A stretch of DNA of 64,000 bases from Escherichia coli (lineage in GTDB: Bacteria; Pseudomonadota; Gammaproteobacteria; Enterobacterales; Enterobacteriaceae): assembly GCF_024298765.1 (NCBI RefSeq), contig NZ_CP101210.1, one strand, 5' to 3'. Under the pieces are notes generated by a model. It searched no databases. It was not told where the DNA came from and saw only the letters and a program-made list of their open reading frames with translations. Positions within the stretch are counted from its first letter, which is position 1, and each line of letters begins with the position of its first letter. The position numbers and the translations under genes were made by a program. This document shows, in pieces, positions 8,696 through 10,588 of the stretch.

Positions 8696-9367
8696 TTAGG
8701 GCTGATTTGCTGTATAGCGCACGAACGCCGGACGTTCCGAGGCCACCGCGTCCGCCCAGCGCGTTGGCTCCGGCAGACGATAGCCTTTCATGCAGCGTTG
8801 TACCCACGCCAGCGCGCTGTCTACGCTGACCCGATGGCCGGTAGCGATAAACAACGGGTTACAGCGCGCTTTGCTGCGCCAGACCCAGGCCAGCTGCTCG
8901 CCTTTATCCATCAGCGGTGCCAGCGCGCCCGGTTCACTGGAGAGCGGTTCGAATTTACCGCAGAGCCGTTTTTTCGCCACGCCTATCGTTGGCACATCCA
9001 CCAGCAAACCAAAGTGGCTGGCGACGCCAAGACGGCGAGGATGCGAGATCCCGTGACCATCGACAAACACTAAATCCGGCTTTTGCGACAGCATCTCCCA
9101 CGCTGCCAGCAGCGCAGGATATTCGCGGAAGGAGAGAAAACCTGGAATGTAAGGCATGGTGGTGGCGATGCGGGCCACTTTATACTCCACCAGCTCAAGC
9201 GAGGGGTATTTCAGCAGCACCATCGCCGCTCGCGTCACTTCTCCGCCCTGCTCAAATCCGACATCGGCTCCGGCGATCAGATCCGGCGGATCTTTATCGA
9301 GTCGATCCTCGCGGATCACAGAAGAAGCCAGTTCGATTTGTTGAGCGCGTAATGACGCGAGATCCAT
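8696..9367 (-). CDS. nfi: Endonuclease V (deoxyinosine 3' endonuclease)
   Basis: 223 aa [23 protein letters not shown]; RBS aaggag upstream. Confidence 0.95.
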
Positions 9368-9379
9368 AATCGCTCCTTA

Positions 9380-9523
9380 GAGCCTGGTCCACCAGGCGTA
9401 ATTGTTGAAGGCAGTTTGAGGCCGGACAGCGCGGAAAAACCGGAGCGTACACGTAGTACGTGAGGATTTTGAGCACTGCCCGGCCTCAAAATGGCAAATA
9501 AAATAGCCTGATGGACCAGGCTC
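9380..9523. mobile_element. 144-bp MITE-like palindromic element with 18-bp terminal inverted repeats, flanked by TTA direct repeats
   Basis: Left TIR gagcctggtccaccaggc (9380..9397) vs right TIR reverse complement gagcctggtccatcaggc (9506..9523); inner IR ttgaggccgg/ccggcctcaa; central perfect palindrome cacgtagtacgtg; TTA at 9377..9379 and 9524..9526. Confidence 0.6.
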
Positions 9524-10588
9524 TTAGCGGTGATACTGTTCAGATAACCGATGCACTGCCTCCACAAACACGCCAGCATGTTCTGGCGGCACATCCTGAT
9601 GAATGCCGTGACCAAGGTTAAAGACATGACCTTCACCGTGACCGAAACCTGCAAGTATAGTCGCTACTTCTTCTTCAATGCGGGCTGGCGGCGCGTACAG
9701 CATCGACGGATCCATATTGCCCTGCAACGCGACTTTATTGCCCACGCGACGGCGCGCATCGGCGATGTCCGTTGTCCAGTCGAGGCCCAGCGCATCGCAA
9801 CCGGTTTCTGCCATGGCTTCCAGCCACTGTCCGCCGCCTTTGGTAAACAGCGTGACCGGTACGCGGCGACCGTCGTTTTCACGCAGTAAACCATCAACAA
9901 TTTTATGCATGTAATAAAGCGAGAACTGTTGATAATCGCGCCCGGTAAGCACGCCGCCCCAGGTGTCGAAAATCATCACTGCCTGAGCACCGGCTTTAAT
10001 CTGCGCATTCAGATACAAAGTGACGCTTTTCGCCAGTTTATCGAGTAGCGCGTGCAGCGCCTGCGGATCGGCATACATCATTTTTTTGATCACGGTGAAG
10101 GCTTTGCTGCTGCCGCCTTCCACCATATAGGTCGCCAGCGTCCACGGGCTGCCGGAAAAACCAATCAGCGGCACTTCGCCTTTCAGTTCGCGACGAATGG
10201 TACGCACCGCGTTCATCACGTAACCCAGCTCATCTTCCGGGTCCGGAATTGGCAGTTTATCGACGTCGGCTTTGCAGGTGACTGGCGAGGTAAAACGCGG
10301 ACCTTCTCCGGCTTCAAAATAGAGCCCTAACCCCATCGCGTCCGGCACGGTGAGGATATCGGAAAAGAGGATCGCCGCATCCAGCGGGTAGCGACGCAGC
10401 GGTTGCAAAGTCACTTCGCACGCCAGCTCGGCGTTTTTGCACAGCGACATAAAATCGCCCGCCTGGGCGCGCGTGGCTTTATATTCCGGTAGATAGCGAC
10501 CCGCCTGGCGCATCATCCATACTGGAGTGACATCAACGGGCTGGCGCAGCAGCGCCCGCAGATAACGATCGTTTTTAAGTTCGGTCAT
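9524..10588 (-). CDS. hemE: Uroporphyrinogen decarboxylase
   Basis: 354 aa [36 protein letters not shown]. Confidence 0.97.

What the first reader, a model, noticed from the sequence alone, without database searches (positions are those of the whole stretch)
9377..9526. 144-bp MITE-like palindromic element inserted exactly at the hemE stop codon, with TTA target-site duplication
The element (9380..9523) has 18-bp terminal inverted repeats (17/18 match), nested internal inverted repeats and a central perfect palindrome, and is flanked by direct TTA repeats. One of these TTA copies is the hemE stop codon (TAA on the minus strand). Removing the element plus one TTA recreates a 9-bp hemE-nfi spacer (ggagcgatt), which is the tight operon junction I recall for K-12. 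The element sits inside the hemE-nfi co-transcript and would form a long RNA hairpin that could affect nfi expression or mRNA stability. I could not assign it to a named family; its size is similar to the RSA/ERIC class.
Basis: partly seen in the sequence, partly recalled or inferred. Interest (0 to 1): 0.55.

Follow-up and report, generated by a model that had tools for sequence, protein, structure and literature searches.

The report
Small mobile palindrome at hemE stop codon
A 144-bp non-coding mobile element of an old, low-copy family found across enteric bacteria sits exactly on the stop codon of hemE in about 6% of E. coli strains; it is real but ordinary, because the insertion rebuilds the stop codon and leaves the next gene's ribosome-binding site intact.

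Summary
Window 9380-9523 is a 144-bp palindromic element with 17/18 terminal inverted repeats. It is flanked by TTA direct repeats, and one of these is the hemE stop codon. E. coli K-12 and three Salmonella enterica records have the empty site: TAA, a 9-bp spacer, then the nfi ATG. The window has exactly 147 extra bp. Only 305 of 5,426 complete E. coli genomes carry the element here.

It belongs to a family. Every E. coli genome has 1-10 diverged copies (78-88% identity; six in K-12), for example at cysP|ucpA, pheM|pheS, qseG|glrK and glnA|glnL. Copies also occur across the Enterobacterales, on plasmids and in a P2-like phage. Thirty-eight distinct sites have perfect TAA/TTA duplications and a biased target, A-Y-TAA-G. 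About a quarter of copies use the duplication as a gene's stop codon.

The rod hairpin is kept by compensatory changes across the family. The element is not ERIC, not REP, and no Rfam family. It is most probably the "RSA" family, but that name rests on memory only.

No transposase partner was found, and nothing indicates current mobility in E. coli. The effect on nfi is predicted to be small and was not measured.

Verdict: a strain-variable member of a known kind of element; low-to-moderate interest.

The parts
9380..9523 (.). 144-bp palindromic non-autonomous element (MITE), a member of a family found across the Enterobacterales
   Evidence: Exact 147-bp indel against K-12. Hairpin energy -83 kcal/mol, z -12. 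Paralogs in E. coli and other genera.
9377..9379 (.). Target-site duplication copy (TTA on +, TAA on -). On the sense strand it lies directly upstream of the nfi Shine-Dalgarno sequence.
   Evidence: Thirty-eight family sites have perfect TAA/TTA duplications.
9524..9526 (-). Second target-site duplication copy, which is also the hemE stop codon (TAA on the minus strand)
   Evidence: ORF 9524..10588 includes its stop codon here. hemE annotation on matching RefSeq records.
9380..9397 (.). Left terminal inverted repeat, GAGCCTGGTCCACCAGGC
   Evidence: 17/18 match to the reverse complement of 9506-9523. Family consensus is GAGCCTRYCCCA..AGGC.
9506..9523 (.). Right terminal inverted repeat, GCCTGATGGACCAGGCTC
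9412..9493 (.). Internal inverted repeat (arms 9412-9441 and 9464-9493) enclosing the central 13-nt palindrome CACGTAGTACGTG (9450-9462)
   Evidence: 30-nt arms, 80% complementary. Folds. Helices 3-6 are supported by covariation.
9495..9522 (-). Terminator-like feature on the sense strand: the terminal-repeat mini-hairpin AGCCUGGUCCAUCAGGCU followed by AUUUUAUUUG, immediately after the hemE stop codon
   Evidence: Consensus scan. Hairpin energy about -8.6 to -9.7 kcal/mol. Probably weak, because the same orientation occurs at entC|entE in Citrobacter.
9368..9376 (-). The original 9-bp hemE-nfi spacer, GGAGCGATT, carrying the nfi Shine-Dalgarno sequence. The insertion left it intact.
   Evidence: Predicted accessibility 0.41 with the element and 0.46 without.
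8696..9367 (-). nfi (endonuclease V) coding sequence, downstream of the element
9524..10588 (-). hemE (uroporphyrinogen decarboxylase) coding sequence, upstream of the element. Its protein is unchanged by the insertion.

Best explanation
[quoted passage not shown] It belongs to an old, low-copy palindromic family spread across the Enterobacterales, most probably the family published as 'RSA'.

**How it got here (inferred).** A transposase supplied in trans made a staggered 3-bp cut at a TAA and joined the element's ends (GAGCC...GGCTC) to it. The transposase has not been identified. The 3-bp TAA/TTA duplication resembles that of IS5-family or PIF/Harbinger-type enzymes, a comparison made from memory. 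Repair of the staggered cut duplicated the TAA.

**Why this site.** The family prefers the target A-Y-TAA-G. That motif coincides with a TAA stop codon followed by the G of a ribosome-binding site. The hemE-nfi junction, CGC-TAA-GGAG, was therefore a good target.

**Why it is tolerated.** The duplication gives hemE back its own stop codon, and the nfi Shine-Dalgarno sequence stays 3 nt beyond the element. Both genes remain intact and the allele could persist.

**History (shown).** The insertion happened once, in an E. coli sublineage. It is now in about 6% of complete genomes. It is absent from K-12, from most other E. coli and from Salmonella.

**Effect on expression (inferred, not measured).** The element is transcribed within the hemE-nfi message and should fold into a long rod hairpin of about -83 kcal/mol. 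The most likely consequence is small. It could act as an RNA-processing or mRNA-stabilising structure, or as a weak terminator. A change in nfi translation initiation is not predicted.
For: **The insertion at hemE-nfi**
- The filled and empty alleles differ by exactly 147 bp, the element plus TAA.
- 305 of 5,426 E. coli genomes carry a copy at >=95% identity, all sampled ones at hemE-nfi. The other genomes match the flanks over 954 bp instead of 1,101 bp.
- Three Salmonella enterica records show the same 954-bp span and 87% query coverage as empty E. coli, so they were taken to be empty (the junction itself was not read base by base).
- The flanks differ from K-12 by 2.9%, with no cluster of differences at the junction.
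- This copy is the second most stable hairpin of 45 aligned copies, -83 against a median of -63 kcal/mol. That fits a comparatively young copy.

**The family**
- 5,425 of 5,426 E. coli genomes have 1-10 copies (median 5); a K-12 MG1655 genome has 6.
- Identified loci are cysP|ucpA, pheM|pheS, qseG|glrK and glnA|glnL.
- Copies occur in Citrobacter, Klebsiella, Enterobacter, Erwinia, Pantoea, Serratia, Salmonella, Hafnia and other genera, on plasmids and in a P2-like phage.
- A second filled/empty polymorphism exists at glnA|glnL: 993 genomes are filled, and the O157-type allele is 145 bp shorter.

**Target site**
- 38 non-identical sites have perfect TAA/TTA duplications.
- A at -2 occurs in 26/38, Y at -1 in 29/38, and G at +1 in 29/38. 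Against all TAA sites in the same loci, p = 3e-7, 2e-5 and 1e-16.
- In 12 of 49 copies the duplication is the stop codon of an ORF of at least 80 codons. This includes entC|entE in two Citrobacter species. Two Salmonella copies do the same.

**Structure and expression**
- 95.7% of cells in the alignment are base-paired. Thirteen of 35 pairs show compensatory changes. None of 500 shuffles reach the observed values.
- Shine-Dalgarno accessibility is 0.41 with the element and 0.46 without.
- Swapping a glnA 3'UTR that carries a copy of this family into K-12 changed neither GlnA nor NtrC levels (PMC9731577; family membership of that copy shown).
Against: - No autonomous element with matching ends was found. 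The four pairs of matching ends 0.9-2.7 kb apart enclosed ordinary genes or were two neighbouring MITEs. Partial plasmid copies are truncations or remnants.
- No copy more than 89.6% identical was found anywhere else, so the donor copy is unknown.
- There is no sign of ongoing transposition in E. coli.
- The name 'RSA' rests on memory: about 152 bp, six K-12 copies, enterobacterial. No reference RSA sequence could be obtained. [quoted passage not shown]
- Co-transcription of hemE and nfi is recalled from the literature and was not verified here.
- The RNA-level consequences are predictions only.
- Some of the 38 target sites are orthologous between related species, which inflates the counts somewhat.
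Confidence: 0.85

Rival explanations
1. The element is kept at hemE-nfi because it does something useful there. As a long hairpin it could be an RNase III processing site, an mRNA-stabilising 3' structure for hemE, or a partial terminator that uncouples nfi from hemE.
For: - The hairpin is very stable.
- The rod structure is conserved by covariation across genera.
- On the sense strand, the terminal-repeat hairpin followed by AUUUUAUUU looks like a terminator directly after the hemE stop codon.
- The internal sequence is unusually conserved across the family, with 86% mean column identity.
Against: - 94% of E. coli and Salmonella do without it.
- Copies sit in either orientation relative to the upstream gene at stop-codon sites, 7 against 5 (tallied by hand from the oriented table for the stop-codon sites).
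- The same orientation sits inside the entC-entE operon of Citrobacter, which argues against strong termination.
- Swapping in a glnA 3'UTR that carries a family copy had a negligible effect on the flanking genes (PMC9731577).
- Covariation can equally reflect what transposition requires.
Confidence: 0.15
2. The element was ancestral at hemE-nfi and was lost by precise excision in most lineages, rather than gained in one.
For: - Carriers are somewhat diverse: flanks differ by up to 1.5% and the element by up to 1.4%.
- The element is about 11-22% diverged from every other sampled copy.
Against: - Three Salmonella enterica records, including subsp. houtenae, give the same 954-bp span as empty E. 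coli.
- All sampled empty E. coli alleles likewise span 954 bp.
- Only 5.6% of genomes are filled.
- The copy is among the best preserved in the family, with a perfect duplication and the second-best hairpin of 45.
Confidence: 0.04
3. It is a copy of ERIC/IRU or a REP/BIME unit, the two common E. coli palindromic repeat families.
For: Its size (144 bp) is in the ERIC range, and it is intergenic, transcribed and palindromic.
Against: - The ERIC core primer sequences need at least 9 substitutions in 22 to match either strand (the primer sequences were recalled from memory).
- The true REP in the K-12 glnA 3'UTR does not align with it.
- REP units have no terminal inverted repeats and no target duplication.
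- The copy number is about 5 per genome, not tens or hundreds.
Confidence: 0.01
4. The filled allele entered E. coli by homologous recombination from another species or Escherichia clade. On this view it did not arise by transposition inside an E. coli cell.
For: No E. coli-resident copy is more than 88% identical. The closest copy found is in Salmonella, at 89.6%.
Against: - The flanking hemE and nfi sequence shows ordinary E. coli-level divergence from K-12, 2.9%, with no block of foreign sequence at the junction.
- Salmonella appears empty at this site.
- Even on this view, the event in the donor would still have been a transposition.
Confidence: 0.08

Closest known systems
RSA sequences (= 'BEE95'; Bachellier & Hofnung 1996), a low-copy palindromic intergenic repeat family of enterobacteria
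   Same: The copy number matches (six places in K-12, six as I recall from the K-12 genome paper). Both are dispersed, intergenic, palindromic and enterobacterial.
   Different: Identity with RSA could not be tested, because no RSA reference sequence was available. Only the citation was seen. I do not know whether the TAA/TTA duplication, the A-Y-TAA-G target or the stop-codon habit shown here have been described for RSA.
ERIC / IRU elements
   Same: Both are enterobacterial, roughly 130-bp imperfect palindromes. Both sit in transcribed intergenic regions, often inside operons, and behave as MITEs.
   Different: The sequences are unrelated. The copy number in E. coli is lower. This family duplicates TAA/TTA (3 bp), whereas ERIC is reported to duplicate TA (from memory).
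PIF/Harbinger-type 'Tourist' MITEs and the IS5-family subgroups that duplicate 3 bp
   Same: Both have a 3-bp TAA/TTA target duplication with an extended target preference, and short terminal inverted repeats. (The properties of those families are recalled from memory.)
   Different: No cognate transposase was found here, so the relationship is an analogy only.
Neisseria Correia elements (NEMIS) and the Geobacter MITE 'Chunjie'
   Same: These are small MITEs that land between co-transcribed genes and are transcribed into long hairpins. Correia hairpins are RNase III substrates, and Chunjie sits in an operon without breaking it (from memory).
   Different: The sequences, hosts and target duplication (TA for Correia) differ. 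Nothing was measured for the hemE-nfi copy.
Rfam RF02228, Xanthomonas sRNA sX9
   Same: One half of the element, from centre to end on the minus strand, aligns along the whole sX9 model with shared primary sequence in two independent copies. Scores are 31.7 and 32.2 bits. sX9 is listed among the most prevalent, multi-copy Rfam 'sRNAs' (PMC9029176).
   Different: Both scores are below Rfam's gathering score of 44, so the element is not a member. At most it is a distant relative, and I could not examine any Xanthomonas sequence.

Membership tests
Bacterial MITE (non-autonomous class II element) | Small size and no coding capacity | tested here: met
   144 bp. The only ORFs crossing it are frame-shifted overlaps of hemE and nfi. 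No Rfam family reaches its threshold.
Bacterial MITE (non-autonomous class II element) | Terminal inverted repeats | tested here: met
   17/18 match. The repeats are conserved across 45 copies.
Bacterial MITE (non-autonomous class II element) | Target-site duplication of fixed length | tested here: met
   TTA/TTA here. Thirty-eight non-identical family sites have perfect TAA/TTA duplications. The empty sites carry a single copy of the trinucleotide.
Bacterial MITE (non-autonomous class II element) | Multiple dispersed copies and filled/empty site polymorphism | tested here: met
   1-10 copies per E. coli genome. Filled and empty alleles exist at hemE|nfi and at glnA|glnL.
Bacterial MITE (non-autonomous class II element) | A cognate autonomous element whose transposase recognises the same ends | tested here: inconclusive
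   None was found among 134 fetched loci or among partial plasmid copies.
RSA repeat family | About 150-bp palindromic intergenic repeat with about six copies in E. coli K-12, also present in other enterobacteria | tested here: met
   Six places in an MG1655 genome, three of them located. Copies occur in many Enterobacterales. The published figures are recalled from memory.
RSA repeat family | Sequence identity to the published RSA consensus | not testable with these tools
   No paper in the library gives the sequence. Only the Bachellier & Hofnung 1996 citation was found.
ERIC / IRU | The conserved central core matched by the ERIC1R and ERIC2 primer sequences | tested here: not met
   At least 9 substitutions in 22 are needed on either strand.
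REP / BIME | 35-40-nt GC-rich palindromic units, with no terminal inverted repeats and no target duplication | tested here: not met
   No alignment with the REP of the K-12 glnA 3'UTR. This element has terminal inverted repeats and a target duplication.
Rfam sX9 (RF02228) | Score at or above the family's gathering threshold of 44 bits | tested here: not met
   31.7 bits for the window copy and 32.2 bits for a Citrobacter copy.
Intrinsic (Rho-independent) terminator | GC-rich hairpin immediately followed by a U-tract on the transcribed strand | tested here: inconclusive
   The terminal-repeat mini-hairpin (7 pairs, about -9 kcal/mol) plus AUUUUAUUUG matches the consensus scan on the sense strand. 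The whole-element hairpin has no U-tract after it. The same orientation occurs inside the entC-entE operon of Citrobacter.

The most novel reading that the evidence does not exclude
This family may be a distinct class of enterobacterial MITE, of the IS5/Harbinger type that duplicates TAA/TTA. Its extended target, A-Y-TAA-G, would make it a specialist coloniser of TAA stop codons at tight operon junctions. Its rod hairpin, kept by compensatory changes across genera, would have an RNA-level role, such as RNase III processing or setting mRNA ends, in the operons and 3'UTR-derived sRNAs it occupies (hemE-nfi, entC-entE, O111-type GlnZ). It would also have distant relatives outside the Enterobacterales, namely Xanthomonas 'sX9'.
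Probability: 0.15. Interest if true: 0.5.

Novelty: new member of a known kind. Interest (0 to 1): 0.3.

Why it matters
The finding matters mainly as annotation hygiene and as a small natural experiment.

- **A natural isogenic contrast.** The hemE-nfi junction differs by 147 bp between E. coli lineages. That gives a ready-made comparison for testing what a 144-nt hairpin does inside an operon transcript.
- **Why these elements survive inside operons.** The family's habit of landing on TAA stop codons, which rebuilds the stop and spares the next ribosome-binding site, explains how such elements persist inside operons and 3'UTRs.
- **Re-reading a published result.** The 'O111-type' insertion in the GlnZ sRNA locus turns out to be a member of this family.
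- **Unnoticed sequence.** These copies carry no annotation in the records examined and could confound intergenic-region or sRNA comparisons.

None of this overturns current understanding.

Tried and rejected
- **Rfam.** No family reached its threshold. The only notable sub-threshold hit was sX9.
- **ERIC and REP identity.** Both rejected by sequence comparison.
- **Other copies in the 64-kb window.** None found.
- **Literature on RSA/BEE95.** Only a citation turned up, with no sequence or description. MITE surveys and reviews did not name this family.
- **Autonomous partner.**
  - Four pairs of matching ends 0.9-2.7 kb apart were found, in four loci.
  - They enclosed recC-like, endonuclease-like or qseG genes, or were two neighbouring MITEs. 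None enclosed a transposase.
  - Partial plasmid copies were an IS5-truncated copy and a remnant in the colanic-acid cluster.
- **A Citrobacter flank that resembled the hemE-nfi junction.** It proved to be entC|entE, not hemE|nfi.
- **The 'REP insertion' in K-12 GlnZ.** It is a genuine REP, not this family. The O111-type insertion is the family member.
- **The 170-nt insertion after K-12 narK.** Not this family.
- **Import of the allele with foreign flanks.** No divergence cluster at the junction.
- **Strand preference of the hairpin.** None: 23 of 45 copies fold better on the plus strand, Wilcoxon p = 0.66.
- **Sequestration of the nfi Shine-Dalgarno sequence by the hairpin base.** Not predicted.
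- **Literature on hemE-nfi co-transcription.** Nothing usable in the library.
Full report
**1. The observation**

The window is E. coli. A 1.1-kb stretch around the finding is 100% identical to strain 104, and 5,420 of 5,426 complete genomes match it. On the minus strand, ORF 9524..10588 is hemE and ORF 8696..9367 is nfi.

- TTA at 9377-9379;
- a 144-bp element at 9380-9523;
- TTA at 9524-9526, which reads TAA on the minus strand and is the hemE stop codon;
- terminal inverted repeats matching at 17/18 positions;
- 30-nt internal arms that are 80% complementary;
- a small central palindrome, CACGTA-G-TACGTG, at 9450-9462.

The element folds into a single rod hairpin. The energy is -83.1 kcal/mol on the sense (minus) strand and -81.0 on the plus strand. 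Z-scores are about -12, and none of 200 shuffles folds as well.

**2. It is an insertion**

In K-12, hemE ends at 4198780 and nfi starts at 4198790. The alignment reads CACCGC-TAA-GGAGTGATT-ATG in K-12. The window reads CACCGC-TAA-[144 bp]-TAA-GGAGCGATT-ATG, which is exactly 147 extra bases.

- A copy at >=95% identity is present in 305 of 5,426 genomes: 225 at >=99% and 80 at 95-99%. Every copy I inspected lies at hemE-nfi, including a 98.6% variant.
- The other genomes sampled match the flanks as two pieces spanning 954 bp instead of 1,101 bp.
- Three Salmonella enterica records (a serovar Kentucky contig, serovar Infantis, and subsp. houtenae) show the same 954-bp span. I take this to mean the ancestral state is empty, although I did not read the Salmonella junction base by base.
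- The flanks differ from K-12 by 28 of 978 positions, with no cluster at the junction. Nothing suggests a block imported from another species.

**3. It belongs to a family**

A sensitive BLAST search finds 1-10 related places in 5,425 of 5,426 E. coli genomes. The median is 5, a K-12 MG1655 genome has 6, and identities are 78-88%.

The E. coli loci I identified are cysP|ucpA, pheM|pheS, qseG|glrK(qseE) and glnA|glnL. Three of these are confirmed in K-12.

Outside E. coli:
- full-length copies occur on conjugative plasmids of Citrobacter, Klebsiella and Enterobacter and on Pantoea megaplasmids;
- they occur in chromosomes of Citrobacter, Klebsiella, Raoultella, Enterobacter, Kluyvera, Cedecea, Erwinia, Pantoea, Serratia symbiotica, Hafnia, Leminorella, Salmonella and Escherichia whittamii;
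- a P2-like Yersinia phage carries one;
- Photorhabdus has shorter relatives.

Within a genome, copies are mostly 75-92% alike. They are more alike in Enterobacter sp. JUb54, at 93-97%. The closest relative of the hemE copy found anywhere is a Salmonella copy at 89.6%.

The hemE copy is the second most stable hairpin of 45 aligned copies and has a perfect duplication. It is therefore comparatively young, but its donor copy is not among the sequences sampled.

**4. Anatomy of the family**

- **Ends and duplication.** Aligned copies share the ends GAGCCTRYCCCA..AGGC / GCCT..TGGGRYAGGCTC. Thirty-eight non-identical sites have perfect TAA or TTA direct repeats. Both E. coli empty sites carry a single copy of the trinucleotide.
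- **Target bias.** The reconstructed targets are strongly biased: A at -2 (26/38), C or T at -1 (29/38), TAA, then G at +1 (29/38). Against all TAA sites in the same loci, p = 3e-7, 2e-5 and 1e-16. Some of these sites are orthologous between related species, so the counts are somewhat inflated.
- **Orientation.** The element inserts in either orientation relative to this asymmetric target, 24 against 14.
- **Stop-codon habit.**
  - In 12 of 49 copies the duplication is the stop codon of an ORF of at least 80 codons.
  - Examples are entC|entE in two Citrobacter species, again with TAA-GGAG, and two Salmonella genes.
  - One plasmid copy landed just inside an RND pump gene and replaced its last residues.
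  - The hemE-stop insertion is therefore typical of the family, not a curiosity.
- **Covariation.** The hairpin is maintained by compensatory changes. In the alignment 95.7% of cells are paired. Thirteen of 35 pairs have changes on both sides, for example GC/AU/GU at pair 7-142 and AU/CG/GC at pair 60-93. None of 500 shuffles reach the observed values, and slid controls pair at 41% or less.
- **Strand.** Neither strand folds consistently better.

**5. What it most likely does**

*Mobility (inferred from anatomy).* The element was probably moved by a transposase supplied in trans that makes a 3-bp stagger at A-Y-TAA-G. I could not find that transposase. The resemblance of a 3-bp TAA/TTA duplication to IS5-subgroup and PIF/Harbinger elements comes from memory, not from a test. 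There is no evidence of current activity in E. coli. The only high-identity copy is the one at hemE-nfi.

*Expression.* The insertion regenerates the hemE stop codon and leaves the nfi Shine-Dalgarno sequence 3 nt beyond the element.
- Predicted accessibility of that sequence is 0.41 with the element and 0.46 without.
- On the sense strand, the first terminal repeat can form a 7-pair hairpin followed by AUUUUAUUUG. This is terminator-like by a consensus scan.
- The same orientation sits between entC and entE in Citrobacter. Stop-codon copies occur in both orientations, 7 against 5 by my hand tally. Strong termination is therefore unlikely.
- An experiment on a paralogous copy points the same way. 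The 'O111-type' glnA 3'UTR carries a member of this family. Replacing the K-12 3'UTR with it changed GlnA and NtrC levels negligibly (PMC9731577).

My best estimate is a near-neutral passenger that adds a long hairpin to the hemE-nfi message. It might serve as a processing or stabilising structure. That hemE and nfi are co-transcribed is recalled from the literature and was not verified here.

**6. Comparison with known families**

- **ERIC.** Rejected: the core primer sequences need at least 9 changes in 22.
- **REP.** Rejected.
- **Rfam.** No family is matched. One half of the element aligns along the whole Xanthomonas sX9 model at 31.7 and 32.2 bits in two copies, below the threshold of 44. 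sX9 is listed among the most prevalent multi-copy Rfam 'sRNAs' (PMC9029176). It may be a distant relative; this is only a lead.
- **RSA.** This is the best named candidate: dispersed enterobacterial intergenic elements, also called BEE95. The citation exists. The size of about 152 bp and the six K-12 copies that I recall agree with the six places found in MG1655. No reference sequence was available, so the name remains unverified.

**7. Verdict**

The element is a strain-variable member of a known kind of element, an enterobacterial MITE that is probably RSA. It is present at this site in about 6% of E. coli genomes.

The family-level results may not have been described before, but I could not check the older literature. 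These are the TAA/TTA duplication with an A-Y-TAA-G target, frequent capture of stop codons at operon junctions, covariation-supported hairpin conservation, and membership of the O111-type GlnZ insertion. Interest is low to moderate.

Noticed in passing
L009 1198-1340 (E. coli M8, glnA|glnL); empty allele L135 180-390: The 'O111-type' glnA 3'UTR (GlnZ sRNA locus) carries a roughly 142-bp member of this family. It is present in 993 of 5,426 genomes, and the O157-type allele is the empty site, 145 bp shorter. The paper (PMC9731577) describes it as a 98-nt insertion flanked by AGGUUCAAA repeats, which appears to be a mis-parsed boundary. The K-12 type carries a true REP instead.
   Followed up: yes
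L060 1483-1627 (Citrobacter amalonaticus); L114 2460-2603 (Citrobacter sp. On2M): A family copy sits exactly on the entC stop codon TAA, directly before the entE ribosome-binding site (TAA-GGAG). This is the same geometry as hemE-nfi, inside the enterobactin operon.
   Followed up: partly
L011 3001-3145 (Citrobacter plasmid pCFR-4109); L144 2501-2584 (K. pneumoniae plasmid): One copy, identical across dozens of conjugative plasmids of Citrobacter, Klebsiella, Enterobacter and Kluyvera, is inserted just inside the 3' end of an RND efflux pump gene and replaces its last residues. In one K. pneumoniae plasmid an IS5 has truncated that copy.
   Followed up: partly
L138 1501-1619 (Yersinia phage vB_YenM_42.18): A P2-like phage carries a family copy between the terminase gene gpM and the head-completion gene gpL. 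A 31-aa 'hypothetical protein' is annotated inside it. Phages could therefore carry these elements between hosts.
   Followed up: no
window 9410-9461 (-); L134 2154-2220 (-): There is sub-threshold but full-length similarity to Rfam sX9 (Xanthomonas sRNA, RF02228), at 31.7 and 32.2 bits against a threshold of 44. sX9 is reported as one of the most prevalent multi-copy Rfam sRNAs, so it may itself be half of a related palindromic repeat.
   Followed up: partly
L030-L033 (metagenome-assembled genome CTSoil_132); L121-L122 (Candidatus Pantoea varia): A longer variant of about 207 bp, with roughly 63 extra bases near the centre, occurs in many copies that are up to 96.6% alike. Several contigs of the CTSoil_132 assembly end inside it, which suggests a recently amplified subfamily.
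   Followed up: no
L020, L110, L115 and L016, L111, L113 (Photorhabdus species): Shorter relatives of about 95-130 bp share the terminal repeats and sub-terminal sequence, including the AAATAAAATAGCCTAATGG stretch, but have different or reduced internal sequence.
   Followed up: no
Alignment A3, columns 48-102 (window 9426-9480): The central part of the element (ACAGCGCGG..CCGGAGCGTACACG.AGTACGTGAGGAT..GAGCACTGCCC) is nearly invariant from Erwinia to Escherichia, yet it is not perfectly palindromic. This is more conserved than I would expect for a decaying MITE, and I have no explanation for it.
   Followed up: no
L139 138-321 (K-12 narK-narG, NarS sRNA): PMC9731577 mentions a 170-nt insertion after narK in E. 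coli. It is not a member of this family (no BLAST match), and its identity was not pursued.
   Followed up: partly
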